Source: a virus
Length of the DNA stretch: 64,000 nt
Strand: one strand, 5' to 3'
Virus record (IMG/VR): IMGVR_UViG_3300009502_000036
Coordinates: 14,092-78,091 of that record
The translations under genes and the position numbers were made by a program. Of the stretch, positions 2,827 through 25,510 are shown piece after piece. Position 1 is the first letter of the stretch, and the number at the start of each line of letters is the position of its first letter. The notes beneath the pieces were generated by a model. The model was not told the origin of the DNA. It made no database searches and saw only the letters and a program-made list of their open reading frames with translations.

Positions 2827-3252
2827 ATGATAATTTATAACATTAACGAGGACATTTTCTCTAAATGTGAAGACCTTTATAATAAAGAAGCTCTTACATT
2901 TAACCCGATGATAAAAACTGTATCGGAAATACTAAGAAAAGTTTCAATTGGTTGCCCAGCTTTGGTTGTGAAAGATAGTTTACATTCGAAATCAAAAGCT
3001 ATAAAAATACATACAACAAAACATCTAACATTTAATATGGCTGATAGTGTAGATATTTTTTTTACTATAAAAAATAAAGATATTATGGAATGGGTATACA
3101 ATAATTTTCATTCCGATAAAGAATTGTCACAGTATATTATAACTTTAAATCCAGAAAAGATTCTTGATGATTTATCGCTATATGTAAGTTGTTTTTATAA
3201 AGATGAATGGTATATTCTAGTCCCAAGTGTTTTAGTTAGAATTTATTACTAA
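2827..3252 (+). CDS. paralog family A protein
   Basis: HTTKHLTF ... FYKDEWYILV motifs shared with neighbouring ORFs. Confidence 0.65.
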   Translation: MIIYNINEDIFSKCEDLYNKEALTFNPMIKTVSEILRKVSIGCPALVVKDSLHSKSKAIKIHTTKHLTFNMADSVDIFFTIKNKDIMEWVYNNFHSDKELSQYIITLNPEKILDDLSLYVSCFYKDEWYILVPSVLVRIYY

Positions 3253-3593
3253 CATTTCTTATTTTATTTCATGAAAAAGAAATAATTGAAAAGTTAACAA
3301 ATACTAAAATAACTCTTCAGATAGAATGTACTGATTTTAGAATAAAAAAGCTTAAAGAATTAAGATTTATAATGAAATGATTGAAGAACAAATAAAAGAT
3401 AGAAAATATAAATTTCCCAATCACGATTATGTAGCAGATTGGAATATGAGGAAAAGGCTGACGGAACTTTCAAAAAATCAATTTGTATATGCTTATGAGC
3501 ATGAAAATATGTTAGATTATATTAAAAATATTTCGAATGTTTATGTTCTAGGAGCATATTGATTTCGAGATTTAAATTGTGATTAACTTTTAA

Positions 3594-3926
3594 GTGTTTC
3601 TGCAAAATTATTTAAATAATTCTACAATGAAAATGAAATATAAACTTGGCTATAAAGGAATGTGGGGAAGTGATGTTTATTTTTTAGAGGGTTTTCCATC
3701 TTCTATAGATAAAATTTACGCTATTTATATAAATGACACGAGAGTTTCCGTGATAAATGGCAAAGTAGGCCATGTAGAAGATTCTGATTGTGTTCCTACA
3801 TATTCTAATCATTTTTATATTCAGATAGATGTCTTTGGCGTACTTATCGACATTGATATAAACAAAATTGTTAATGAAATTGATGTTTATGTTAAAACAG
3901 AAGATGTTTCATTTTTAGCCACATGA
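3594..3926 (+). CDS. hypothetical protein
   Basis: 110-aa ORF, ATGA-coupled to the next gene. Confidence 0.5.
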   Translation: MFLQNYLNNSTMKMKYKLGYKGMWGSDVYFLEGFPSSIDKIYAIYINDTRVSVINGKVGHVEDSDCVPTYSNHFYIQIDVFGVLIDIDINKIVNEIDVYVKTEDVSFLAT

Positions 3927-4234
3927 CATACATAGTGAAAAAGGGTACACCCGGAGTAGCATATAATATAATTGAAAGCACTATAGTTATACTTAAAACT
4001 ACTAAAGATTTAACTTTTAACCGTAGATCGGATAGTGATGTTAATGATCATTATTTAGGAGATGTTGGTGGAGAAAGATTGTGGAATGTTATCTTGGACT
4101 GTTATCACTCAGATATGTCTCTTATTAAATCAACAAATTTTGAAAATATAAAAGTACGGGATCTTAATGTATTTGAAGAAGATTTTTGGTTGTTGTTTGT
4201 CCATCGAGATTTAGTGACTTTTACCACAAAATAA
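3923..4234 (+). CDS. paralog family A protein
   Basis: KKGTPGVAY, TTKDLTF, FEEDFWLLFV. Confidence 0.7.
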   Translation: MTYIVKKGTPGVAYNIIESTIVILKTTKDLTFNRRSDSDVNDHYLGDVGGERLWNVILDCYHSDMSLIKSTNFENIKVRDLNVFEEDFWLLFVHRDLVTFTTK

Positions 4235-4260
4235 TTTTTTATAATCAATAGAATAATTTG

Positions 4261-4281
4261 TATATTATATTACGTGAATAA
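4261..4281 (+). promoter_or_regulatory. putative early promoter motif TATATTATA (copies at 4261, 5268, 7427, 9388, 10517, 18568, 24483)
   Basis: TATATTATA recurs in intergenic gaps ahead of gene starts, often preceded by AAAA; three copies are followed shortly by TGAAyAA. Confidence 0.6.
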
Positions 4282-4475
4282 ATTATAGATGGAGAGTATA
4301 GCATGATTGAAGTTTATCAAAAAATAAAAGACATTTTATATAATGCAGTAGAACAGTCAGAGTCAGAATATTATGGGTTTTCTGGTATTCCTGAAGATTC
4401 TCTTTATGATACTCTTAAACAAATTATGGAAGTTGTTAATTCTTATAGAGATAACGAAACATCAAAAAATAATTT

Positions 4476-4757
4476 ATGAATAACTTTTTCATACCAAAAG
4501 GAACCTTTGGTATTGCATATGATACATCGGAAGGGAATTTTGTTGTATTAAGTACGAGTAAAGATTTAAATTTCCTAGAAAGGAGTGATTCTAAAGTAAC
4601 GAGATTAGGTGATCTTTGGTGGGATGTTCTACAAATATTTAGAGGTAATTTCATTACTGGCATGGATAATCAAATTTCAGTAACTGATATATTTGCCTTT
4701 GAAAAAGACGAATGGTTCTTATTTATACACCAAACTAAAATTAAATACGAAGAATGA
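4476..4757 (+). CDS. paralog family A protein
   Basis: PKGTFGIAY, TSKDLNF, FEKDEWFLFI. Confidence 0.7.
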   Translation: MNNFFIPKGTFGIAYDTSEGNFVVLSTSKDLNFLERSDSKVTRLGDLWWDVLQIFRGNFITGMDNQISVTDIFAFEKDEWFLFIHQTKIKYEE

Positions 4758-5011
4758 CTTTTTATTTTACCAGGTTCTCCTATATTAGCTTATAGTATTA
4801 TAGATCAGCGTCTAACTTATACTAAGACTTCTAAACTTTGGCAGTTTGATAAAACATCAGAGGGGAATTTTCCAGGCAACTTCCCGATTTAATGCTTGAT
4901 GTTCATGACTATTTTAAAAGAATAGATTCTAATTATATTAATATAGAATACATATATACTTTTGGTATTAAAGATTGGCTTTTGTTTATTAATAAAAGAG
5001 AACTCAAATGA
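4754..5011 (+). pseudogene. frameshifted paralog family A member
   Basis: Reconstructs to MTF/ILPGSPILAY..TKTSKLWQF../..FGIKDWLLFINKRELK; one extra T in the run near 4759-4763 plus a second shift near 4885. Confidence 0.6.
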
Positions 5012-5251
5012 AACTTTTTGTTATAGAAAAAGGAATTGAAGTACTAGCTTATAAAATAAAATCAGATTTGGTGTATTCTATAACTACGAGTAAAATAAGT
5101 TTTTTTTTGTAAAAAATCGGAGAATTCTATATCAGAAGAATTGCTTCTTATAGCAGAAGGAGTATGCGGACAGGTATTCGCTGATATTTTAGTTTTTGAA
5201 AAGGATGGATGGTTATTGTTTGCAGATAAAGAAGAAGTTCAATATTTTTAA
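5008..5251 (+). pseudogene. frameshifted paralog family A member
   Basis: MKLFVIEKGIEVLAY..TTSKISFF/CKKS..FEKDGWLLFADKEEVQYF; single shift in the T9 run 5100-5108. Confidence 0.7.
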
Positions 5252-5507
5252 TTTACAGCAAAAAGTTTATATTATACTATATGAATAATTTATAAACAGA
5301 AAATACATCATGCAAAGAGAAAACAATGATACAATTTGGGGAGCGTTCGCGCTTTACATAACAAATCAGGAACTAGTGATTACAAAAACAGACATATTGC
5401 AACTGTTTAAATCTAATCCGGACGTCATTAAAAATGAAATTAGAGAAAATTCAGAAGAGTCTCTACTTTTTCCTAAAACTTATGTAATGTGCATAAACTA
5501 AATTATA

Positions 5508-6527
5508 ATGAAAATTGACATTAAAGAATTAGACAGACTACATAAAGAGAAACTTTTAGAAAAGCAAGTTCATCCTATTCTTCCTTTGACTATTTGGAAT
5601 TATAGTCAGACTTGTCAGTATGATAATTTGTGGACATCTACTCTTTTGATGTGTCGTGGACTCGTAACAGACGTAGAAGGAAACGTAATTGCTCGTCCAT
5701 TTAAAAAATTCTTTAATTTAGAAGAAAAGAAACATGTACATACGGAAAATTTTACGATTTGGCACAAAGAAGATGGTTCCTTGGGTATTATATTCTTCTA
5801 CAATGGGGTATGGCACATCTGCTCTCGTGGGTCTTTTACTTCTGATCAAGCTATCAAAGCAAAGGAGATGCTTGAAAAAATCAAAGACAAAGAGAAGTAT
5901 CTTAAAAAAGAACTCACTTACCTGGTAGAAATTATTTATCCAGAAAACAGAATTTGCATAGATTATGGACAAACAGAAAAACTTATTTTACTAGGCGCTG
6001 TAGATATAGAAACTGGCGCAGAAGTTAATCCTACAAAAATTTCTCAATGTATTTTTGAAATACCACAGCAGGAATATTTCACTGACTATTCTCAGATTGC
6101 ATGGCTAGACTGGGAAAATAAAGAAGGTTTTGTTGTTCATTTTGACAACGGTAATAAATGCAAGATTAAATTTGCTAATTATTTAAAAAAGCATAAAATA
6201 ATATGGAATCTCACAAACAAATTGATTCACGAACATCTTGTTAACGGTAACATCGAAGAATTGTTGGATCAAATACCAGATGAATTTTATTCTATCGTCA
6301 AAGAAGAAATTTATGAATTTAATAAAGAATATGCTATCATATTAAGTTCAGCGATGGTTGCTTTTAATGATGCACGAAAGTTAGAAACACGTAAAGAATT
6401 TGCTGCGGAAGCACTTAAATATGAATATCCTCAGGTTCTTTTTGCTATGCTTGATAAAAAGAACTATGAAGGTGTTATTTGGAAAATACTTGAGCCCAAA
6501 GTTTCAATACGTATATTAACGAAATAA
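5508..6527 (+). CDS. rnlA: RNA ligase 1 (T4 RnlA family)
   Basis: CRGLV..ARPFKKFFN, KEDGSLGI (motif I), SRGSF, EGFVV, KIK motifs. Confidence 0.9.
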   Translation: MKIDIKELDRLHKEKLLEKQVHPILPLTIWNYSQTCQYDNLWTSTLLMCRGLVTDVEGNVIARPFKKFFNLEEKKHVHTENFTIWHKEDGSLGIIFFYNGVWHICSRGSFTSDQAIKAKEMLEKIKDKEKYLKKELTYLVEIIYPENRICIDYGQTEKLILLGAVDIETGAEVNPTKISQCIFEIPQQEYFTDYSQIAWLDWENKEGFVVHFDNGNKCKIKFANYLKKHKIIWNLTNKLIHEHLVNGNIEELLDQIPDEFYSIVKEEIYEFNKEYAIILSSAMVAFNDARKLETRKEFAAEALKYEYPQVLFAMLDKKNYEGVIWKILEPKVSIRILTK

Positions 6528-6534
6528 GGTTAAA

Positions 6535-6828
6535 ATGGGATATAGTGTATACAAAGGTACTCGTGGAATAGCATACGACGTTAGAAATGAAATTTTTGTT
6601 AAAATACAAACGAAAAAAGATCATCACTTTCATCATTCTAATTTTGGAATCGAATTTGATGAAATTGTTAGTTGTATGATACGTGAAGTATTTGATAAAA
6701 ATTATGTGAAACTTGAACTCTATTTTCCTGAATACGAAACTGGAAGAGGTTCTATTATACCGTTTAAAAGATCAGATTGGTATTTAATGGTATCTAATTT
6801 TAATGTAATATCTTATGTTGGTAAATAA
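6535..6828 (+). CDS. paralog family A protein
   Basis: YKGTRGIAY, TKKDHHF, FKRSDWYLMV. Confidence 0.7.
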   Translation: MGYSVYKGTRGIAYDVRNEIFVKIQTKKDHHFHHSNFGIEFDEIVSCMIREVFDKNYVKLELYFPEYETGRGSIIPFKRSDWYLMVSNFNVISYVGK

Positions 6829-7114
6829 CGCGACTACCTTTAAAGTTAATAAAGGTGTTTCTGTAATAGTTTTGCAAGAAATAGGTTTAAATGCTATTAA
6901 TGGCACTATATTATCAACTGAGTTTAAAAAAATTCGTACGACTAAGGATTTGATTTTTTTCCCAACAGAAAGAATAGGAAAATCTTCTTGGATAAATTTA
7001 GTTCAATCCTTTAGAGATTCGCTCATAAAAACTGATAAATCATTATATCACTGTTTTCGTAGAGACGGTTGGTTTATTTTTATCAATAAATCAGATATCT
7101 TAGAAATAGTTTAA
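6815..7114 (+). CDS. paralog family A protein
   Basis: VNKGVSVIV, RTTKDLIF, FRRDGWFIFI. Confidence 0.7.
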   Translation: MLVNNATTFKVNKGVSVIVLQEIGLNAINGTILSTEFKKIRTTKDLIFFPTERIGKSSWINLVQSFRDSLIKTDKSLYHCFRRDGWFIFINKSDILEIV

Positions 7115-7130
7115 GCGAAGGAGTTTTTCC

Positions 7131-7418
7131 ATGTTAAAGGTTTGTAAAGGAACTGAATGCGTTGTAATAAATAAATCTTTCTGTTCGGAAAAATATATTA
7201 TTGATGGAATAATAAATGAAAAATTATTTAAATTTATACGAACAACTAAAAATTTAGAATTTAGTGGAGAAGAAGAAAAGCTTTACGACGATTTTCCTAT
7301 TCTTTTTGACAGTTTTGATGAGTTGTTTTATGACTTTGGCACTCCGGATATATATAATTGTTTTGAAAGAGAAGGTTGGTTTGTATTTTTTGAGAATTTT
7401 CCTGTTACATATTGTTAA
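7131..7418 (+). CDS. paralog family A protein
   Basis: VCKGTECVV, RTTKNLEF, FEREGWFVFF. Confidence 0.7.
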   Translation: MLKVCKGTECVVINKSFCSEKYIIDGIINEKLFKFIRTTKNLEFSGEEEKLYDDFPILFDSFDELFYDFGTPDIYNCFEREGWFVFFENFPVTYC

Positions 7419-7479
7419 ATTATTATTATATTATATCATAGGTCTATAAGTGAAAGTAGTTAAATCTAAATAAATTGAA

Positions 7480-9330
7480 ATGAACATCCCTTTCCACTCT
7501 GTCAAACAATTAGAATCACAAATAGTAGTGGCTAGTACAGCATATTATGAAGGCATTGCTATTATGACAGATGAAGAGTTTGACTGCATGATAAAAGCTC
7601 TAAAAGATTGTAATCCTAATTCTTCAATTCTCAAGACCGGTTGGGGATATGTACCTAAAGATAGAATAGTTGAACATATTGGCAGTGAGGTTGGATCACT
7701 AGATAAAATCCAGATAGCTAACTATATAGATAGAAAAACCGTTATAGCTACTCCTAAATACGATGGACTTACTGCAGTAGTATATTTTGAAGATGGTAAA
7801 TATGCTAAAGGTGTAACTAGAGGTGATGGTAAATTAGGACAGGATATTTCCTCTAAATTGAAGTGGATAATTGAGAATACTACTGAGGCTAATCTTGATG
7901 ATATAGTATTTGATGGTACATCAATAAGAGGTGAGGTAGTTGTACCATTGGTATATGAGTCTGATGTATTATCCTTAGGATATTCAAATACAAGAAACTT
8001 TGCTGCAGGAGTTATGAATACTAAGGAGGATGACTATGAGTTACTTCGTTATCTTCACTTTGTTCCATATACTATCAGAGATAGTAAGTTATCCAAATGG
8101 CAATGTTACGAATTTTTTTATGAAAAAAATCTTATAACTCCATGTCAAGTAGGATTAATTGAGAATATATTAGACTCGGAAAGCCTAAGGTTAGTATATA
8201 ATAAATGGAGAGAGATATATCCAATAGATGGAATTGTATTAACAAAAGAATTTTCTGAGGATATTGACAACGACTCATATGCAGTAAAGTTTGAGACAGA
8301 AGAAAAGCCCGCCGTAGTTGATACTGTTGAGTGGAGTACGCGATCAACAGGAGCTGTGATACCTGTGGTTATATTAAAGGAGCCTATCAAGATTCATGGA
8401 GCTAATATCCAGAGGCTTAGTGGATATAATTGGAAATATATCACTGATAATAAAATTGGACATGATGCGGAGATCATTATTACCAGAGCAAATGAAGTAA
8501 TACCTAAAATACTTAACGTCACTAAACCATCCAGTACGGTAGTTTGGCCACATGAGTGTCCTGTATGTGGAAGTCCAACATCAGTACAGAGTGTTCATCT
8601 TATATGTGAAAATCCACTATGCCCATCTGTACAGATTAATCAAGTACATGCATTTTTAACTAGATGTGATATTGATAAGGGTATCGGTCAGACTACATGG
8701 GATAAATACTTTGAACATTTTAGTGTAGGTAATTTCTTTGATTTTGTAAATAGTGTAAGAAACTATGATGGTAATATACAGCACTTGGAATTTCTTGGAG
8801 ATAGTATGTCTAAGAAGGTTGCCCAGGCTATTACAGTTATTGGGAATAAAATCAAGAATATTACTTATGAGGATATACTAGTATCAATGAACATTCCAGG
8901 TCTTGGAACTACACATGCTAAGACTCTTGGTCAATACACTTTCCAAGAATTAAAGGATAAGAGTATAAGTGAGAATAATAATCTTGGAACTAATGTAACA
9001 GTTGGAAGAGAGATATCGAACAAAATAGATGATCTAATAATGTTAGTAGATATTCTCTGGCCCACTAATCCCCCTACTATTACAGTGCCTATTAATATTA
9101 CGGGAATAGAGGTATGTATTACTGGTAAGCTGGAGTATGGTACTAGAGATAAATTTGCAAAAGCAATAGAGTCATATGGATTTATATCTGTTGATGGAGT
9201 GAATAAGAATACCAAATATCTAATCTGCAATTCCACTTCTTCATCCAGTAAATCTAAAACTGCTAGTAAATTAGGAGTACCAGTGATATCTGAACAAGCA
9301 TTTTTAGATCACTTTAATATTGTACTATGA
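7480..9330 (+). CDS. ligA: NAD-dependent DNA ligase
   Basis: AYY..MTDEEFD (domain Ia), KYDG, TRGDG..G.D, RGEV, RNFAAG, DGIV, Cys4 zinc finger CPVCGS..CENPLC, C-terminal BRCT (VCITGKL). Confidence 0.93.
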   Translation: MNIPFHSVKQLESQIVVASTAYYEGIAIMTDEEFDCMIKALKDCNPNSSILKTGWGYVPKDRIVEHIGSEVGSLDKIQIANYIDRKTVIATPKYDGLTAVVYFEDGKYAKGVTRGDGKLGQDISSKLKWIIENTTEANLDDIVFDGTSIRGEVVVPLVYESDVLSLGYSNTRNFAAGVMNTKEDDYELLRYLHFVPYTIRDSKLSKWQCYEFFYEKNLITPCQVGLIENILDSESLRLVYNKWREIYPIDGIVLTKEFSEDIDNDSYAVKFETEEKPAVVDTVEWSTRSTGAVIPVVILKEPIKIHGANIQRLSGYNWKYITDNKIGHDAEIIITRANEVIPKILNVTKPSSTVVWPHECPVCGSPTSVQSVHLICENPLCPSVQINQVHAFLTRCDIDKGIGQTTWDKYFEHFSVGNFFDFVNSVRNYDGNIQHLEFLGDSMSKKVAQAITVIGNKIKNITYEDILVSMNIPGLGTTHAKTLGQYTFQELKDKSISENNNLGTNVTVGREISNKIDDLIMLVDILWPTNPPTITVPINITGIEVCITGKLEYGTRDKFAKAIESYGFISVDGVNKNTKYLICNSTSSSSKSKTASKLGVPVISEQAFLDHFNIVL

Positions 9331-9461
9331 GGAGCTTCTTTCTTGAAATAAGTATCAAAAAATATTTTGTGTTTAGTGGAAAATGATTATATTATAAAGT
9401 CGAGTAATTTAAAAGAAACTTCTTTTCTATTGCTTCATCTTAATAAATTTTAGTTTATAAT

Positions 9462-9800
9462 ATGCAACACATTAAAGAGGGAACATTTGGTATTGCTTAT
9501 TGTTATATTGTAAATCATGTTCACTATGACAAATACGTAAAATTAAATACTTCTATGGATTTATATTTTAATAAAAATGTAACCAAAATAGGAAAGTCTA
9601 TTTGGGCTCACGTTTTTGGTTTATATAAGAGTGATTACATACTACAGAATGTTATAAAAGAAATGTTAGCAAAAATACATCCGCAACCTATAGAGGATTT
9701 TATTACTGTTATTGATAAAGATGGATGGTTATTTTTTTTCCAACAAAAGAAATTATATCAGAAAAAGATATTTTTGAGTTTTAAATTACCGTTTGATTAA
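9462..9800 (+). CDS. paralog family A protein
   Basis: IKEGTFGIAY, TSMDLYF, IDKDGWLFFF. Confidence 0.7.
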   Translation: MQHIKEGTFGIAYCYIVNHVHYDKYVKLNTSMDLYFNKNVTKIGKSIWAHVFGLYKSDYILQNVIKEMLAKIHPQPIEDFITVIDKDGWLFFFQQKKLYQKKIFLSFKLPFD

Positions 9801-9804
9801 AGAA

Positions 9805-10172
9805 ATGTCATATACTATTTTTAAAATACTATCGCGATTGTTTTAAGAATAAAACCCGAAGACTGTTATTTTTGTGTTGGTACTAAAAAATATACACGAA
9901 GATTTCACGATACCAACACAAAAATAACATTTATACATACAACAAAGGAACTAATATTTGAGGAGATGATGAATGCAGATGAGCTTAAACATTTATATTA
10001 TCGTATTAAACACGCGGTTTTACCGAAATCTTCAGAATACGTAAACTCATTTCATGAAAAACAATGGAGTTTTTTTAACAAATTAGATGAAACTGGCAAT
10101 TGGATGCTTATAGTTCCTTCTAATAAAGTCTTTAAAGATTTTTTAAACAAACCATATGCCAGTAGTTTATAA
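9805..10172 (+). pseudogene. frameshifted paralog family A member (track ORF 9966..10172 is its 3' half)
   Basis: MSYTIFK/NTIAIVL..HTTKELIF..ETGNWMLIVPS; one A missing in the A4 run near 9823-9826; parallels 10156..10479. Confidence 0.65.
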
Positions 10173-10479
10173 AAACACACCAGCAATTGTGGTTCACAAA
10201 CCACACATAGATTCAAATTTGTCTATAGAAAGTATTGAATATTGGATAGATGCTAAAATAATAAGCATGTTCACAACAAGGGATATTCATTTTAAAGAAC
10301 AGGTTTTTTATTTACCATTTTATATACGCAATAAGATATGTTATAAAATAGACAGTTCCATCAATATTTCCTACGCATTTCGAAACAAGGGAAAGACTTT
10401 TTTTAAACGTGAAGATGAAAACGGAATTTGGTTTCTTGTTGTTCCTTCAGATTATCAGTTATTGATGAGAATTGAGTAA
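10156..10479 (+). CDS. paralog family A protein
   Basis: VYKNTPAIVV, FTTRDIHF, FFKREDENGIWFLVVPS. Confidence 0.65.
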   Translation: MPVVYKNTPAIVVHKPHIDSNLSIESIEYWIDAKIISMFTTRDIHFKEQVFYLPFYIRNKICYKIDSSINISYAFRNKGKTFFKREDENGIWFLVVPSDYQLLMRIE

Positions 10480-20239: not shown

Positions 20240-21163
20240 GTGGATAAAACAACATACAAACACATAGTACATACAAAAATGACGACGACAACATTCGCAG
20301 ATTTAAAAAAATCACGCAAGAGTAATTTCGACGAACTTACAAAAAAAGTCGAACAGTTAATTTCTCCTACAAGAGAATCTTTTTCAGATGATCGATTTTG
20401 GGTACCTACAATTGACAAAGCTGGCAATGGTTACAATGTAATCAGATTTCTTCCTGCAAAGGCTGGAGAAAGTTATCCATGGATTAGTTATTTTGATCAT
20501 GGATTTCAAGGACCAACCGGATTATGGTACATCGAAAAATCTTTAACAACAATTGGTGGACAAGATCCATTGGGTGACTATAATTCCAAACTTTGGAATT
20601 CTGGTGTAGAAGCAAATAAGGAACAAGCTAGAAAACAGAAAAGGCGTCTTCATTATGTTTCTAACATTTACGTTGTTAGTGATTCTGCACATCCAGAAAA
20701 TGAAGGGAAAATTTTCCTATTTCAATATGGCAAAAAGCTTTTCCAGAAGATTAATGAAGCTATGAATCCACAGTATGAAGATGAAACTCCAATTAACCCA
20801 TTTGACTTCTGGGAAGGAGCAAATTTCAAACTAAAAATTCGTAACTATGAAGGCTATCGTAATTATGATAAATCAGAGTTTGATACTACAGGTCCTTTGT
20901 TTGATGATGACAAAAAGTTGGAAAAAATATATAATGATCTTTATAGTTTAAGTGACTTCTTGGATCCTAAAAATTTCAAGACATATGAAGAACTAGAAAA
21001 GAAACTGAATAAAGTTCTATTCTTGGAAGATAATGAACCAAGACAGAAAGCAGAAGTACCTACACCACAAGAAAGCCGTAGGTCTATTAATGACAAAATA
21101 CAAGATGATGACGATGATTCTATTGATACTGACTTCTTTAAGCGATTAGCTCAGGAAGATTAA
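20240..21163 (+). CDS. gp32: single-stranded DNA-binding protein gp32
   Basis: DDRFW, GNGYNVIRFLP, HGFQGPTG.WYIE, NPFDFWEGANFKLKIR, acidic tail; start probably ATG20279. Confidence 0.95.
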   Translation: MDKTTYKHIVHTKMTTTTFADLKKSRKSNFDELTKKVEQLISPTRESFSDDRFWVPTIDKAGNGYNVIRFLPAKAGESYPWISYFDHGFQGPTGLWYIEKSLTTIGGQDPLGDYNSKLWNSGVEANKEQARKQKRRLHYVSNIYVVSDSAHPENEGKIFLFQYGKKLFQKINEAMNPQYEDETPINPFDFWEGANFKLKIRNYEGYRNYDKSEFDTTGPLFDDDKKLEKIYNDLYSLSDFLDPKNFKTYEELEKKLNKVLFLEDNEPRQKAEVPTPQESRRSINDKIQDDDDDSIDTDFFKRLAQED

Positions 21164-21175
21164 TACTTATCATTC

Positions 21176-21203
21176 AAAGGGGTAGAATATTCTATCCCTT
21201 TTT
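21176..21203 (+). terminator. intrinsic terminator after gp32
   Basis: aaaggggtagaa-ta-ttctatcccttt followed by a T run. Confidence 0.65.
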
Positions 21204-21222
21204 ATTATGAAAATATGGAAAA

Positions 21223-22224
21223 ATGTTTAACAAAGAATTTGGTGAGCAAAAAGCACTTCTAAGAGAATTTAACATTCCCGAATGTATTCTTAAAAAATAT
21301 AACGAGCATCATAGATTCTATCATAATCAAAATCATATCAATGATTTGTGGATTAAAGGTAGCAAAATGATTACTAAACATGACATTGGTGTACCGTATG
21401 ATCTAGGATTAGCAATTATTTTTCATGATATTATATATGATCCAAAATCAAAGGATAATGAAAAGAAAAGTGCAGAATTTTTAATGTCTTTTGCTAAGAA
21501 TGACAAATTTCCAACTAGCAGATATGATATTTTTATAAGAGCATATAATGCCATTCTAGATACAGAGAATCACGAACCAAAGACTGAATTGGGTAAAGTT
21601 TTATGTGAAATAGATGTTAGTTCTCTTCATGAAGACTTTGATGTTCTTCTAAAAAATGAGGAACTTATAGCAAAAGAATATCAATATTTACCTTATGAAA
21701 AATACGTAAGTGGAAGAATAAATTTTTTAATTGAGTTCTATAAAAATAACATCGATTTAGGAAAGGTGTTTAATTCTTATATTTCCTTCGTAAAAAATAA
21801 AAAGCCTAATATTGGACTTTATGCAGGTACCTTTAATCCGTTTCATAAAGGGCATCTTAATATTTTAGAGAAGGCGGAGAAAATATTCGATAAGGTTATT
21901 ATTTTATACGGCAATAATACAGCTAAAGATAATTCTATTACTAAAATTGTTCCTAAGTATATAGAAAATAGAGAAATAGTTCATCATAGCGGTTTATTGG
22001 TAGATTATATCAATTCATTACCTTATGATGTTACTCTTATAAGAGGACTAAGAAATACTACAGATTTGCAAGCAGAATTAAATCTTTATAGATTTTTGAA
22101 TGATATGAAACCTGATATTAAAATTATTAATATTTTTTGCGATGCAGAATGCGAACATATTTCTAGTAGTTCTTTAAAGGAAATAGAAAAATTTACGTCT
22201 ATTAAAAATTACATTGTAGAATGA
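21223..22224 (+). CDS. HD-domain phosphohydrolase fused to phosphopantetheine adenylyltransferase (CoaD-like)
   Basis: HRFYHN..H, FHDIIYDP...NE..SA (HD domain); YAGTFNPFHKGH (HxGH), IRGLRN..D...E, ISSS (CoaD). Confidence 0.85.
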   Translation: MFNKEFGEQKALLREFNIPECILKKYNEHHRFYHNQNHINDLWIKGSKMITKHDIGVPYDLGLAIIFHDIIYDPKSKDNEKKSAEFLMSFAKNDKFPTSRYDIFIRAYNAILDTENHEPKTELGKVLCEIDVSSLHEDFDVLLKNEELIAKEYQYLPYEKYVSGRINFLIEFYKNNIDLGKVFNSYISFVKNKKPNIGLYAGTFNPFHKGHLNILEKAEKIFDKVIILYGNNTAKDNSITKIVPKYIENREIVHHSGLLVDYINSLPYDVTLIRGLRNTTDLQAELNLYRFLNDMKPDIKIINIFCDAECEHISSSSLKEIEKFTSIKNYIVE

Positions 22225-23889
22225 AATATAAAACAGATAACATAGTGAAATATATACCGAATCTGCTTCTAAGTTTTTATTGTAGTCACAAATATAGAAA
22301 TATAACATTACTATTAATAAAATTAGACTGGATTTTAGTAAGATGAAATATAATGTTCATACCGTAAATTATGCAATTCATAATGCTTATTTTTGGAGTG
22401 TTTAGTATAGATTTTTATAATTTTTATATCAAATTGTATTATTATTATGCAATTATTTTTAAACATCAGATCAAAAACTTAATTGTTAGATGAACTATAA
22501 CATACATACAGTGTTATGAAAGTTGGAATGGGGGACAATGTTATATGTTTGAAGGTGAGTTTAACTATCAGAAAAATACCATTTACAATAGTATAATAAA
22601 AAATGATTAATACGATTAAATTTCTACACTAGAAAATGAAACATTATAAGACGGGATTAATTTTTAGTAAAAATTTATGTTATTTTGATAAAGAACTTCT
22701 TAGAAATGAAATTTTTTCTAGTGTTCCTATTTGGATTATTTTTAATGGTGTAAGTGTTAGAAGAATGGAATTATTTTTTAATCTTTTAGCTCAATGAAAC
22801 AATATAGAATTAAACAACACAATGTTTTTCTGGGAGGTTGTTATTGGGAAGTTGGTGAATTATTATTACCGTCTGATATCCAACTTACCTTTCCTTTACG
22901 AAAATATTTAAATCTAAAATTTGGTTTAATTTTAATATAATGAAATATAATGTTCGTAGTAAGATGAAATATAATATAGATGCGATTCCGATTTATTTCA
23001 ATTTTCATATTTTTTGTTCAATTTATCCTCGGCATGAATTGGGTTCGATAATAAACAATCTTTCAATTCTATACTTTCTTGTAAATATAACAGATCTACT
23101 TGATAAGACCAAAATAAGATGAAAAAATATAACACAGAAAAAATAAATCGTAATATTACGAGAATATATTCTATAGTATTTCGCGACTCTAATTATTATT
23201 TTATTAAGTTTCAAAATCAATTAATTTACACCAGATACGGTATACCATGTCTATGGTTAGAAGAACTTGAACGTGATCTTTATCAATCTAGATGTTTTAA
23301 TGTAGACTTTTAAAAAATGAAATATAATATTAACACAGTAAATGAAAATTTAAAAGCTAGCATTCTAGTAGATTTTTTCTATTCGGATTTCATGTCTTTC
23401 GCTCATATATTCAAAAATCCAGAATATAAATTACTATTAGAAAAATTTCCCGGGATTTTAGTAAGATGAAATACGATATTAACAATATAAATATATTTCT
23501 AGGAGAGAATTTGCATCCAATTAAAAGTTTTTATTCGAATTTTAGATTTTATATGGATAAATATAGAAATATACCAGAACATGTATTGCTATCAATAAAA
23601 CTAAACCAGATTTTAGTAAGATGAAATACGATATTAACAATATAAATAATAAAATAACGGGTGATTGGTCACCTTATGATTTTGCTTTTGATATTTTAGC
23701 ATTTGAAATTAAAGTTTATTTACAAAATTGGATCATATGACGAATAACTATAACACGAAAAACATAAATTATGAAATTCATAGTAATATCTGTAATAAAA
23801 GGTTTGGAATGCCTTTAATTGGCGATTTTGTATATGAAATATATTTAGCAATAAGTAGTTCGGTATATTTACCATATATAGTTAGATGA
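22221..23889 (+). repeat. tandem array of ~11 ATGA-coupled mini-ORFs (39-64 aa) with a repeated junction sequence
   Basis: starts at 22221, 22343, 22490, 22636, 22794, 22940, 23119, 23317, 23466, 23621, 23737; junction gattttagtaagATGAaata at 22331, 23454, 23609; 40-bp exact repeat 23454-23493 = 23609-23648. Confidence 0.8.
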
Positions 23890-24455
23890 TACATACATTT
23901 ATACCTTATGCGCACCGATCAGAGAATAAAAATCTTGGCGCAGTTTATAATCGATATATGAATATGATTAACGATGACGATTGGGCATGTTTTTTAGATG
24001 CAGATGCAATGTTTACGACATCTGATTATCATGAGCAATTAGAAACTATTACAACTGCTATAGATTCAAAGAATTTAAATGTTGGTCTATTAACTGCAGT
24101 TACGAATAGAATAGGTAATGTTGAACAAATCGTATTTTCTAAAGATTCCGACGATGCTTATAATCATGATTTTTCTTTTCATAGAAAAATAGGAAAAAAT
24201 TTACAGGAAAAAAATAGGTATCTTTTAAAAGAATGCAAAGATCCTATTAGCGGAGTTGTTTTATTATTACCTAAAAGAGTATGGAAACAAACAGAAGGAT
24301 TTATAAATGGATTTTTAAGTGTAGATAATCATATCGACTACGCTATAAGAAGAGCTGGTTTTCGTACTTGTATTATGGAAGGATTATATGTCTATCATTG
24401 GTATAGAAATGATTGGAAAGAAACCAATGGATTAGCTCCTACCGGATATAAATAA
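23886..24455 (+). CDS. glycosyltransferase family 2-like protein
   Basis: NLGAVYN, WACFLDADAMF (DxD), SGVVLL...W...GF..GFL.VDN, YVYHWYR. Confidence 0.75.
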   Translation: MIHTFIPYAHRSENKNLGAVYNRYMNMINDDDWACFLDADAMFTTSDYHEQLETITTAIDSKNLNVGLLTAVTNRIGNVEQIVFSKDSDDAYNHDFSFHRKIGKNLQEKNRYLLKECKDPISGVVLLLPKRVWKQTEGFINGFLSVDNHIDYAIRRAGFRTCIMEGLYVYHWYRNDWKETNGLAPTGYK

Positions 24456-24559
24456 AAAATTTCTTATTCTCAAAAAAGTTTCTATATTATAAACATCAAA
24501 TGAAATAATTTTTACAACAAACAACAAACAACAATAACAAAAACAAAACAAAAAACATT

Positions 24560-24763
24560 ATGAAAAAGATCACAATTATTAGCGCTTTCCTTTCTATCAT
24601 TCTTGCTAGCGCACCATCTTTTGCTGCAGATACGACTGCACCAGTTACAGCAAAAACAGAAGTAGTAACAGCTAAGAAAGCAATGAAAGCTCCTAAAGTT
24701 ACAAAAAAGAAAGTAGTAGCAGCTAAGAAATCAGTGAAGGTTGCAACTCCAACAGTTAAGTAA
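24560..24763 (+). CDS. secreted Lys/Ala-rich small protein
   Basis: Sec signal ending SFA, then a low-complexity basic tail. Confidence 0.75.
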   Translation: MKKITIISAFLSIILASAPSFAADTTAPVTAKTEVVTAKKAMKAPKVTKKKVVAAKKSVKVATPTVK

Positions 24764-24787
24764 TCAATAACAAAAACAAAAAACATT

Positions 24788-25456
24788 ATGAAAAAAATTA
24801 CATTTTTAATAGCATTGTTTGGGATGTTACTTATGTCTACAGTAACATCTTATGCATCTGATTTGGTAACCTCTGGAAGTGTTGGTGTTTATAGTAGATA
24901 TTTTGATCATGGTTATGATCAAAGTAATGGGAAAGCATTTTCTACTCTTTCTGGTACTGTAGCTTACGACGCACTATCTGTAAGTGTTCTTGCAAAACAG
25001 TCTATTTCAGGACAAAGTGGTTATAATGGAATTGAAGGATCTGTTGATTATGCATTAAGCAAAAATGCTTCTTTCGGTGTAAGATCGTATTCTATTGCTG
25101 ATGTAAGAAATGATCAGGATTTGGATGCTCATATCTCACTTACTGATGGTGCATTTACTATTAATGCAGAAAGAAGAATAGCTGGAATTAACACGTCTGG
25201 AACTTATGGAGAACTTGTTATTACAACTCATCCAATTAAGAATATAGATGTTCAGATTGTTTCTGGTGTAGGTAATAAAATTTATACCGCTAGTAATGAT
25301 TTGAAATTCCAACTTGTCAACGAAGCAATAGTTATTAAAACTAATGTTGCTAATGACGTTTCTGTTTTTGGTACCGCGGTTTACAATTCTGCATTGCATC
25401 AGACATTCAAAACAAATGATATTCTTTATGGAGTAGGTCTTTCGGTTAATCTCTAA
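24788..25456 (+). CDS. putative outer-membrane beta-barrel protein
   Basis: signal peptide, alternating amphipathic strands, C-terminal YGVGLSVNL. Confidence 0.65.
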   Translation: MKKITFLIALFGMLLMSTVTSYASDLVTSGSVGVYSRYFDHGYDQSNGKAFSTLSGTVAYDALSVSVLAKQSISGQSGYNGIEGSVDYALSKNASFGVRSYSIADVRNDQDLDAHISLTDGAFTINAERRIAGINTSGTYGELVITTHPIKNIDVQIVSGVGNKIYTASNDLKFQLVNEAIVIKTNVANDVSVFGTAVYNSALHQTFKTNDILYGVGLSVNL

Positions 25457-25476: not shown

Positions 25477-25510
25477 AGAAATGGCTCCTAATAGGAGCCA
25501 TTTCTGTTTT
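25477..25510 (+). terminator. intrinsic terminator
   Basis: perfect inverted repeat agaaatggctccta-a-taggagccatttct followed by a T run. Confidence 0.8.

What the first reader, a model, noticed from the sequence alone, without database searches (positions are those of the whole stretch)
22221..23889. Cassette-like chain of ~11 translationally coupled micro-genes with a repeated junction sequence
Seen: 1.67 kb that looks mostly intergenic in the ORF track is tiled by ORFs at about 150-bp period. Units are 22221-22346 (41 aa), 22343-22493 (frameshifted), 22490-~22610 (broken), 22636-22797 (53), 22794-22940 (48), 22940-23122 (60), 23119-23313 (64), 23317-23469 (50), 23466-23624 (52), 23621-23740 (39) and 23737-23889 (50). 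Most begin MKY(N/D/K) or MKxY and five end in (L/I)VR. Most are joined by ATGA stop/start overlaps. The junction gattttagtaagATGAaata recurs at 22331, 23454 and 23609, and the last two share 40 identical bp. A 24-bp mini-unit at 22940-22963 looks like a deletion scar between junctions. Interiors are aromatic-rich and highly divergent, although units 1, 8 and 9 share FY..LL..K...ILVR. The chain is coupled to HD-CoaD upstream and the glycosyltransferase downstream. Inference: a recombining peptide-cassette array whose conserved junctions serve as both translational couplers and crossover points, giving an expandable library of small proteins. I know of no described system that matches.
Basis: partly seen in the sequence, partly recalled or inferred. 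Interest (0 to 1): 0.82.

Follow-up and report, generated by a model that had tools for sequence, protein, structure and literature searches.

The report
Tandem orphan micro-gene family in phage
An uncultured freshwater T4-like phage carries a row of eleven head-to-tail copies of one tiny (about 50 amino acid) gene family found nowhere else; the row is real and clearly coding, but it is a lineage-specific gene-family expansion of a kind seen before in large phages, and shows no sign of active shuffling.

Summary
Window 22221-23889 is tiled on the + strand by eleven units of 120-195 bp. Nine are intact ORFs of 39-64 aa, two are broken, and one carries a 24-bp remnant. ATG-ORFs of 35 aa or more cover 90% of the stretch, against 8% in shuffles. 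Nine of twelve junctions are ATGA overlaps, including those to the HD/CoaD-like gene upstream and the glycosyltransferase-like gene downstream.

The units are diverged paralogues. They share an N-terminus MKYN(I/V)x(T/N)(V/I)N, and five share a C-terminus (I/L)(L/I)VR. The N-terminal motif is held at peptide level (pN/pS about 0.4).

The family is an orphan. Profile searches of 1.8 and 5.8 billion proteins return only the window's own units. No copy lies elsewhere in the 78-kb record, and none lies in the relatives' loci I could fetch (80 gp32 loci, 41 loci of the upstream gene).

Unitigs of four lake metagenomes from three studies (2016-2020) reproduce the array without one difference, so ongoing shuffling is not seen.

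My best reading is a lineage-specific tandem expansion of small accessory genes in a hyperplastic region of a T4-like phage. It grew by unequal recombination and was homogenised locally at one 40-bp junction pair. Function is unknown, probably host-directed. This scan has noted similar arrays in other phages before.

The parts
21176..21201 (+). Terminator-like hairpin after gp32 (gp32 ends at 21163); only about 20 nt separate it from the start of the HD/CoaD-like gene
   Evidence: 11-pair stem followed by a T run; sequence read
21223..22224 (+). HD-domain / CoaD-like nucleotidyltransferase fusion (333 aa), first gene of the chain; its stop overlaps the U1 start (ATGA)
   Evidence: Pfam PF01467, E 7e-12; NCBIfam coaD model 93.9 bits, under its cut-off of 103.3; 1366 homologues, the best 52% identical
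22221..22346 (+). U1, intact, 41 aa, MKYK... ...WILVR
22343..22493 (+). U2, broken. The head MKYNVHTVN... stops at 22403-22405. The tail is in the +1 frame (ORF 22371-22493, ends NLIVR). The break fits one extra T in the T5 run 22387-22391
   Evidence: the same sequence stands in unitigs of 3 studies; no intact form among 5.8 billion proteins
22490..22635 (+). U3, decayed. Nine-codon head MNYNIHTVL, then a stop; another frame stays open for 38 codons to 22610; a 25-nt spacer follows and the family C-terminus is missing
22636..22797 (+). U4, intact, 53 aa, divergent member (MKHYK...)
   Evidence: 38.8 bits to the family profile; exact protein on 110 contigs
22794..22940 (+). U5, intact, 48 aa (MKQYR... 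...GLILI)
   Evidence: the DNA at its end is homologous to the end of U1 (family D2)
22940..22963 (+). 24-bp remnant of a unit: first 16 nt of a U2-like start plus the last 8 nt of a junction, in frame with U6
   Evidence: (D2, D4)
22964..23122 (+). U6, intact; 52 aa from this ATG, or 60 aa from 22940 (MKYNID... ...KTKIR)
23119..23313 (+). U7, intact, 64 aa, the longest and most divergent member (MKKYNTEKIN...)
   Evidence: 58 bits; exact protein on 94 contigs
23317..23469 (+). U8, intact, 50 aa (MKYNINTVN... ...GILVR)
   Evidence: 71.6 bits
23466..23624 (+). U9, intact, 52 aa (MKYDINNIN... ...QILVR)
   Evidence: 72.3 bits; its interior is homologous to U8 and U1
23621..23740 (+). U10, intact, 39 aa; its first 28 nt are identical to those of U9
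   Evidence: its interior is homologous to U11 (z 4.7)
23737..23889 (+). U11, intact, 50 aa (MTNNYNTKNIN... ...PYIVR); its stop overlaps the start of the next gene
23454..23493 (+). 40-bp junction repeat, copy 1 (end of U8 / start of U9); it ends in TATAAATA
   Evidence: (a 40-nt unitig at raised depth)
23609..23648 (+). 40-bp junction repeat, copy 2 (end of U9 / start of U10); identity stops abruptly at 23648
23886..24455 (+). Small GT2-like glycosyltransferase candidate (189 aa), last gene of the chain
   Evidence: Pfam PF13641 at 22.8 bits and PF00535 at 17.6 bits, both under their cut-offs; no NCBIfam match

Best explanation
The stretch is a lineage-specific tandem array of one orphan family of very small protein genes, about 40-64 aa each. 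It lies in the accessory ('hyperplastic') region downstream of gp32 of an uncultured freshwater T4-like myovirus.

Shown:
- The frames are kept open far beyond chance.
- The units are homologous. The shared N-terminal nonapeptide is constrained as a peptide.
- They form one uninterrupted chain of stop/start overlaps with the HD/CoaD-like gene and the GT-like gene.
- The family occurs nowhere else that could be searched.
- Two units have decayed, and one is reduced to a 24-bp remnant.

Inferred:
- The array grew by repeated tandem duplication and unequal homologous recombination in register, which any head-to-tail family permits. The interiors then diverged quickly.
- One recent short conversion or crossover made the U8/U9 and U9/U10 junctions identical over 40 nt.
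- The units are expressed as part of one transcript from the HD/CoaD-like gene to the GT-like gene. Ribosomes would reinitiate at each ATGA, in a phage that has almost no Shine-Dalgarno sequences.
- The products are dispensable accessory proteins that act on the host or its defences, diversified by an arms race.

The array is stable over at least four years in the lakes sampled. It is a product of past recombination, not a shuffling device.
For: - Coding signal: 10 ORFs and 90% cover, against 1 ORF and 8% in 1000 shuffles. G+C falls from codon position 1 to 3 (0.29 / 0.235 / 0.18), as in coding DNA though weakly.
- Family: the alignments give the consensus MKYxIxxIN ... ILVR. The profile finds all the units in the record and nothing else there. 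Among 528 ATG-ORFs of the window, both end motifs occur only in the array.
- Homologous interiors in sub-groups: U10-U11 z 4.7, U1-U9 z 3.8, U8-U9 z 3.8, U2-U10 z 3.0.
- Peptide-level constraint on the N-terminus: pS 0.76, pN 0.31 over codons 2-9.
- Recent local event: 40/40 identity with an abrupt edge between units whose interiors are unrelated.
- Orphan status: only self hits and single-residue variants among 5.8 billion and 1.84 billion proteins. No Pfam or PHROG match. No junction or N-terminal DNA pattern in viral or metagenome contigs. No unit in 80 gp32 loci of relatives or in 41 loci with a homologue of the upstream gene.
- Accessory region: what follows gp32 differs entirely in phage Melnitz and in the metagenomic relatives.
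- Stability: 0 differences in unitigs of 4 runs from 3 studies.
- Shine-Dalgarno sequences are mostly absent upstream of the phage's long genes.
- Precedent for the mechanism in T4: tandem amplification of a small counter-defence gene by recombination at short homologies (PMC9391042).
Against: - No divergent relative with the family could be fetched, so unit gain and loss between genomes was never seen directly.
- Exact-protein counts are uneven: U10 on 88 contigs, U9 on 44, U6 on 50, U8 on 3. The longest contig (154 kb, a slightly different strain by its gp32) is not on record for U6, U8 or U9. This could mean real differences between strains, or only inconsistent gene calling and assembly breaks at the 40-bp repeat.
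- Expression is untested.
- The composition is close to mutational equilibrium, and AlphaFold2 and ESM models are of low confidence (pLDDT 62 and 41). A fold, and hence a protein function, is not established.
- The C-terminal motif shows no peptide-level signal (pN/pS 0.94 on 5 codons). The core of three junctions is identical at the DNA level, which fits conversion or a nucleotide-level constraint equally well.
Confidence: 0.65

Rival explanations
1. Addressed effector set, working like the T-even internal proteins. The shared N-terminal nonapeptide (and perhaps the ILVR end) would be a common address or docking tag on otherwise different small proteins. It could direct packaging into the head for injection, or binding to one common partner. 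Each body would be aimed at a different host defence.
For: - The N-terminus is conserved as a peptide while synonymous sites are nearly saturated.
- The motif is exclusive to the array.
- The interiors of most pairs are unrelated.
- The units are mostly basic (net charge +1 to +5 in 9 of 10).
Against: - No consistent (L/I)-x-E prohead-protease site follows the motif. This rests on the sequences and on my own recollection of the T4 cleavage rule.
- The units are far smaller than known internal proteins.
- They sit in an early/middle-looking operon with enzymes.
- No head or protease genes were examined.
- The conserved C-terminus has no counterpart in internal proteins.
Confidence: 0.13
2. Decaying 'ORFanage'. 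The array would be the remains of a past amplification that is now neutral or nearly so. The open frames would persist only because the decay is young, and the units would have no present function.
For: - Two of eleven units are broken, and one is reduced to 24 bp.
- The frameshift in U2 stands in unitigs of three studies.
- G+C at codon positions 1 and 2 is far below that of the long genes: 0.29 / 0.235 against 0.42 / 0.37.
- There are no homologues anywhere.
- Models are of low confidence.
- Spontaneous loss of such regions is documented in a cyanophage (PMC4503421, title and abstract only).
Against: - Interiors that no longer align are nevertheless open in 9 of 11 units, in DNA where about one random codon in ten is a stop.
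- N-terminal pN/pS is 0.41.
- Nine ATGA overlaps are retained.
Confidence: 0.12
3. One reading: an actively recombining cassette array. The conserved junctions would be crossover points that keep generating new unit numbers and orders, and so an expandable peptide library.
For: - The 20-mer junction stands three times, with one 40-bp identical pair.
- There is a unit remnant.
- Exact-protein contig counts are uneven, falling from U10 to U9 to U8. Clean crossovers in the shared start region would produce that order.
- Loose ends in run X3 at 22680 and 23641 could belong to a variant array.
- PeSL-flanked ORFans in T4-type phages do excise as mini-circles (PMC2839356).
Against: - Order and sequence are identical in 4 runs, 3 studies and 4 years.
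- All 9 runs that hold the stretch hold 96-100% of its words.
- No well-supported joint was found.
- There are no copies elsewhere in the record.
- Only three junctions are near-identical. The rest are 65-80% alike, which is poor substrate for homologous recombination.
- The remnant is an internal deletion, not a junction-to-junction crossover.
Confidence: 0.08
4. Precursor peptides of a ribosomally made, modified product (RiPP- or glycocin-like). Conserved flanks would frame variable cores, and the neighbouring nucleotidyltransferase and glycosyltransferase would do the tailoring.
For: The layout is conserved end, variable middle, conserved end, and the units are translationally chained to two transferase-type enzymes.
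Against: - The conserved leader is only 9 residues long.
- There are few cysteines (0-2 per unit).
- No protease, transporter or known maturase was seen in the flanking genes examined.
- The GT-like match is under Pfam's cut-off.
- Homologues of the upstream enzyme elsewhere have no such peptides or GT beside them.
Confidence: 0.02

Closest known systems
Hyperplastic regions of T4-type phages, where ORFan genes are shuffled at conserved PeSL cassettes (Arbiol et al. 2010, PMC2839356; Comeau et al. 2014, PMC4122927)
   Same: Both concern a T4-like myovirus and an accessory region between core replication genes. Both involve small genes without homologues, flanked by short conserved sequences that can serve as sites of homologous exchange, with insertion, deletion and replacement of single ORFs.
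   Different: A PeSL is non-coding: a sigma-70-type early promoter plus a terminator stem-loop between genes. Here there is no intergenic space. The conserved block is the coding end of one unit plus the coding start of the next across an ATGA overlap. The genes are also paralogues of each other, not unrelated ORFans. No promoter or terminator enrichment was found in the array.
Polymorphic internal-protein (Ip) loci of T-even phages (Repoila et al. 1994 as cited in PMC12373910; PMC3012670)
   Same: Both are sets of small, basic, otherwise dissimilar proteins of a T4-like phage that share a short conserved N-terminal sequence. They are encoded side by side in a variable hotspot, and for the Ip proteins the function is counter-defence.
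   Different: The motif is different and no consistent prohead-protease site follows it. The units are half the size or less. A conserved C-terminus is also present. The genes are chained with enzymes, not head genes. Packaging is untested.
Segmental ('accordion') amplification of small counter-defence genes: T4 dmd-tifA (Srikant, Guegler and Laub 2022, PMC9391042)
   Same: Both are head-to-tail tandem copies of a small accessory gene in a T4-type genome, made by recombination at short homologies.
   Different: The T4 amplifications are young and identical, arose under laboratory selection and are unstable. This array is old (the interiors mostly no longer align), is stable in nature over years, and each copy is a different protein.
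Tandem arrays of small hypervariable paralogues noted earlier by this scan in other large phages (e1-121287, e1-227035, e1-181578, e1-121465, e1-6073840, e1-3285843; AI notes, unchecked here)
   Same: All are rows of 8-27 diverged copies of one orphan 50-80-aa protein, tightly packed on one strand, restricted to one phage lineage and of unknown function.
   Different: This family is unrelated in sequence. Its units are the smallest of these (39-64 aa), both termini are conserved, and nearly every junction is a 4-nt overlap.

Membership tests
PeSL-flanked ORFan cassettes of T4-type phages | A composite non-coding element (sigma-70-like early promoter plus terminator stem-loop) between the ORFs | tested here: not met
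   Units overlap by 4 nt or are 1-25 nt apart. Promoter-like sites number 64 against 57.5 +/- 8 in shuffles. The only hairpin in the array is a weak 6-pair stem inside U10.
PeSL-flanked ORFan cassettes of T4-type phages | Short conserved sequence on both sides of each small ORF, in a hyperplastic region of a T4-like genome | tested here: met
   Junction families D1-D4. gp59 and gp32 lie just upstream. The content after gp32 differs in relatives.
PeSL-flanked ORFan cassettes of T4-type phages | Insertion, deletion or replacement of single cassettes between close relatives; mini-circles | tested here: inconclusive
   Four runs show one fixed array. Exact-protein contig counts are uneven. Mini-circles need the bench.
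T-even internal proteins (Ip) | A shared N-terminal leader of about 10 residues on otherwise unrelated proteins | tested here: met
   An analogous feature only. MKYN(I/V)x(T/N)(V/I)N is shared, with pN/pS 0.41. It is not the T4 leader sequence.
T-even internal proteins (Ip) | A prohead-protease cleavage site (L/I-x-E, from my own knowledge of T4) at the end of the leader | tested here: not met
   Read: only U9 has L-G-E near the motif. The other units have none, or other residues.
T-even internal proteins (Ip) | Packaged in the head and injected | not testable with these tools
   Needs virion proteomics.
Segmental (accordion) amplification | Head-to-tail copies in one orientation and in register | tested here: met
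Segmental (accordion) amplification | Near-identical copies, and copy number varying within populations | tested here: not met
   Mean column identity is 25-29%. Only one 40-nt stretch is identical. There is no copy-number variant in 4 runs, and the U9-interior unitig has about the depth of its flanks.
RiPP / glycocin precursor arrays | A leader long enough for recognition, a Cys/Ser/Thr-rich core, and a maturase, protease and exporter next door | tested here: not met
   The shared head is 9 residues. Each unit has 0-2 Cys. The neighbours are a CoaD-like nucleotidyltransferase and a sub-threshold GT2 match.

The most novel reading that the evidence does not exclude
The nine intact units are a set of commonly addressed micro-effectors. 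One fixed N-terminal nonapeptide, and perhaps the ILVR tail, would deliver or dock about 30-50-residue variable bodies, as the capsid-targeting leader does for the T-even internal proteins. The same conserved coding junction would serve at once as translational restart site and as the homology used to add or drop units. That would be a coding-sequence counterpart of the PeSL cassette.
Probability: 0.12. Interest if true: 0.65.

Novelty: new member of a known kind. Interest (0 to 1): 0.36.

Why it matters
Large phages devote a noticeable share of their genomes to fast-evolving small genes of unknown function, and most are thought to act on host defences. This array is a clean natural example. 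It has eleven units at several stages (intact, frameshifted, reduced to a remnant) within 1.7 kb. Its terminal motif is under peptide-level constraint, and its bodies have diverged beyond recognition. It could serve as a model for how microprotein families arise, diversify and decay, and for termination-reinitiation in a phage almost without Shine-Dalgarno sequences. Its practical value is limited, because the phage is uncultured, its host is unknown and no relative with the family is available.

Tried and rejected
Searches and look-ups that led nowhere:
The 154-kb and 130-kb contigs that carry most of the units could not be fetched, so strains could not be compared.
- Junction 20-mer, a U7 35-mer and a degenerate N-terminal pattern in viral contigs: no match.
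- The same degenerate pattern, and the HD/CoaD-like protein, in metagenome contigs: nothing.
- Genome contigs failed twice, then gave two irrelevant bacterial loci.
- Rfam on 21000-25000: no family.
- Pfam and PHROGs on the units: nothing below E 0.004.
- ESM Atlas: no usable hit.
- The 270-aa profile hit P0015 is an unrelated repeat protein.
- No intact U2 in the protein collection.
- No RNA holder was listed among the sequencing runs.

Weak or unusable results:
- AlphaFold2 of U9 with the ten paralogues as its alignment gave three helices at pLDDT 62.5 and pTM 0.30. That is too weak to use, so no fold search was run.
- The joint 23348 to 23764 in run X3 has only 21 letters on its shorter side and is not counted. 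Read through, it would give a stop after about 12 codons.
- Short 33-nt matches of high-depth foreign contigs at 22548-22580 look like chance.

Ideas considered and rejected:
- Membrane peptides. The best 19-residue hydropathy is at most 1.5.
- A Shine-Dalgarno role for AGTAAG. It abuts the ATG, and the phage mostly lacks Shine-Dalgarno sequences.
- A recoded stop or one long polyprotein. Each ATGA steps the frame by -1, so reading TGA through runs into stops.
- An integron-like array. No inverted-repeat symmetry was reported at the junctions. A recombinase was not looked for.
- TATAAATA, the T4 late-promoter consensus, ends both 40-bp repeats. It is not enriched in the window (23 found, 17.5 expected).
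Full report
**Where the window lies.** The window is bases 14092-78091 of a 78-kb IMG/VR virus record, estimated 38% complete. Its G+C is about 30%, falling to 24% across the finding. The gp32 gene at 20240-21163 is 65-69% identical in DNA to those of Methylophilales phage Melnitz, Pelagibacter phages and T4-like cyanophages. A gp59-like gene precedes it, and baseplate and tail genes follow further on. Nine public runs, labelled freshwater or lake water metagenome, from three studies (2016-2020) hold the stretch. This is therefore an uncultured freshwater T4-like (Kyanoviridae-like) myovirus.

**The observation.**
- On the + strand of 22221-23889, ten ATG-ORFs of 35 aa or more cover 90% of the bases, and seven have stop/start junctions.
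- In 1000 dinucleotide-preserving shuffles the means were 1.0 ORF and 8% cover, and cover never exceeded 40%. The minus strand has 3 ORFs and 27% cover.
- Nine of the twelve junctions are ATGA overlaps, including those with the upstream HD/CoaD-like gene and the downstream GT-like gene. One junction is TAATG, and two are spacers of 3 and 25 nt.
- The 20-mer junction recurs at 22331, 23454 and 23609. The last two copies are identical over 40 nt.

**The units are one family.**
- Alignments give the consensus MKYxIxxIN ... Y.N..L ... ILVR.
- A profile of nine units finds every unit in the record at 39-72 bits, the broken U2 at 13.5 bits, and nothing elsewhere in the 78 kb.
- Among 528 ATG-ORF candidates in the window, both end motifs occur only in the array.
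- With the ends cut off, some interiors are still significantly alike: U10-U11 z 4.7, U1-U9 z 3.8, U8-U9 z 3.8, and the U2 tail with U10 z 3.0. Most pairs are not alike.
- So there are at least two sub-groups, {U1, U8, U9} and {U2, U10, U11}. U3-U7 are tied to the family only by their ends and the profile.
- In codons 2-9, synonymous sites are nearly saturated (pS 0.76) while replacements are held down (pN 0.31, ratio 0.41). The N-terminal nonapeptide is therefore conserved as a peptide and not merely by recent copying. This rests on few codons and on pairs that are not independent.
- The last five codons give no such signal (ratio 0.94). In U1, U8 and U9 the last 19-20 nt are identical even at silent sites.

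**Traces of history.**
- U9 and U10 are identical from 12 nt before the ATG to 28 nt after it, and then fall at once to random similarity. This is the mark of a short, recent conversion or crossover, not of even divergence.
- The 24 bp at 22940-22963 are the first 16 nt of a U2-like unit joined to the last 8 nt of a junction. A unit has lost its interior by an internal deletion, and the remnant happens to stay in frame with U6.
- U2 is broken by one extra T in a T5 run (22387-22391). U3 keeps only nine head codons, has lost the family's C-terminus and is followed by a spacer.
- These breaks are not errors of one assembly. Unitigs of runs from three studies carry the same letters. Some of those samples may be the source of the record.
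- The end of the HD/CoaD-like gene (…NYIVE, then ATGA) resembles the unit ends at the DNA level (family D4). Its homologues elsewhere also end in …NY(L/I)x, so this may be where the first junction came from. That is conjecture.

**Is it a shuffling device?** The accessible population data say no.
- In four runs, unitigs cover 21000-23483 and 23619-25000 with 0 differences. They break only at the 40-bp repeat, as an assembly with 31-letter words must. The U9-interior unitig has roughly the depth of its flanks.
- All nine holders have 96-100% of the sampled words. Loss of U8 and U9 together would remove about 10%.
- The single joint reported has only 21 letters on one side and is not reliable.
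- One open point remains. Exact-sequence look-ups find the HD/CoaD-like protein on 117 contigs, the GT-like protein on 118, U4 on 110, U11 on 98, U7 on 94, U10 on 88 and U5 on 87. But U6 is on 50, U9 on 44, U8 on 3 and U1 on none. The longest contig (154 kb) belongs to a commoner strain with a slightly different gp32, and it is not on record for U6, U8 or U9.
- Much of this must be artefact. U1 is never called, even in the window's own record. Logan unitigs end inside U8-U10, and start choices differ between pipelines.

**No relatives.**
- Profile searches return only the window's own units and four single-residue variants of U4 (two), U7 and U11. These searches covered 5.8 billion proteins through a word index and 1.84 billion representatives read in full.
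- Pfam, PHROGs, Rfam and the ESM Atlas give nothing.
- None of 80 gp32 loci of relatives (50-64% identical gp32) holds a unit.
- None of 41 viral loci with a homologue of the upstream enzyme (at most 51% identical) has such a chain or a GT beside it.
- The family is therefore confined to this lineage. The region after gp32 is one whose content changes between T4-like phages.

**What the products might be.**
- The units are basic (net charge +1 to +5 in nine of ten). They have no membrane-spanning stretch and at most two cysteines.
- Their excess of F, Y, I, L and N is what 24% G+C codons give. G+C at codon positions 1 and 2 is far below that of the long genes, though the order 1 > 2 > 3 is kept.
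- AlphaFold2 gives three helices for U9 at low confidence.
- The chain begins about 20 nt after a terminator-like hairpin behind gp32. The next strong terminator is at 25477-25505. One transcript over the HD/CoaD-like gene, the array and the GT-like gene is likely but not shown.
- The phage's long genes mostly lack Shine-Dalgarno sequences. Restart at ATGA is then a plausible way to translate such a row. That step is inference.

**Comparison with what is known.** Three described things come close, and none is a family this array belongs to.
- PeSL cassettes of T4-type phages are short conserved sequences that flank ORFans in hyperplastic regions and mediate their gain, loss and excision as mini-circles (PMC2839356, PMC4122927). 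They are non-coding promoter-terminator elements. Here the conserved block is coding and spans a stop/start overlap, so the defining feature is not met.
- The T-even internal proteins are diverse small proteins that share only an N-terminal leader. The leader directs packaging, and each protein blocks a different GmrSD restriction enzyme (PMC12373910, PMC3012670). The layout is analogous. The motif is different, however, no consistent protease site follows it, the units are much smaller, and packaging is untested.
- T4 readily makes tandem amplifications of a small counter-defence gene by recombination at short homologies (PMC9391042). Those copies are young and identical; these are old and all different.
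- This scan has noted at least six comparable rows of orphan small paralogues in other large phages (AI notes, not checked here). The kind recurs.

**Verdict.** I file it as a new member of a known kind, namely a lineage-specific tandem expansion of small accessory genes in a T4-like phage. Its termini are unusually tidy and its stop/start chain is nearly complete. Interest is moderate to low (0.36). The most novel reading still open is an addressed micro-effector set whose coding junction doubles as recombination substrate. I give that about 12%.

Noticed in passing
window 2827-10479: A second paralogue family lies in the same phage. At least eight ORFs of 93-141 aa share the motifs KGTxG, TTKDLxF and FxRDxWF around variable middles (alignment A4, mean column identity 28%). 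No PHROG matches. The phage thus carries two separate expansions of orphan small genes.
   Followed up: partly
window 23486-23493 and 23641-23648: Both 40-bp junction repeats end in TATAAATA, the T4 late-promoter consensus. Other copies sit 30-45 nt upstream of gene starts (for example 34031, 46545, 53592, 25530). The motif is not enriched overall (23 found, 17.5 expected). Internal late starts that feed U10, U11 and the GT-like gene are conceivable.
   Followed up: partly
window 21160-21222: The terminator-like hairpin after gp32 (21176-21201) overlaps a promoter-like pair of hexamers (TTAATA, 17 nt, TAGAAT) and leaves only about 20 nt before the HD/CoaD-like start. This may be a composite terminator/promoter reminiscent of a PeSL at the head of the chain.
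   Followed up: no
window 21223-22224: The HD-domain plus CoaD-like nucleotidyltransferase fusion belongs to a large, unnamed family: 1366 proteins at E <= 1e-10, including Bacteroidota genomes and huge phages. The CoaD model scores 93.9 bits, just under its cut-off. Its substrate is unknown.
   Followed up: partly
window 24788-25456: The 222-aa exported, beta-barrel-like protein downstream has at least seven sequence variants within one 90% cluster. These include 210-aa forms on 42 contigs, and the window's own form is on only 4 contigs. It varies far more between strains than the array does.
   Followed up: no
window 22548-22580: In all four runs a 33-nt piece inside U3 matches, with 3 mismatches, contigs of much higher depth (40-75x) that run on into G+C-richer, unrelated sequence. 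This is probably chance similarity to an abundant organism.
   Followed up: no
window 22409-22440 (run X9): In one run the unitigs stop at 22408 and resume at 22441, inside the broken unit U2. The cause may be low depth or a variant there; the pieces were not shown.
   Followed up: no
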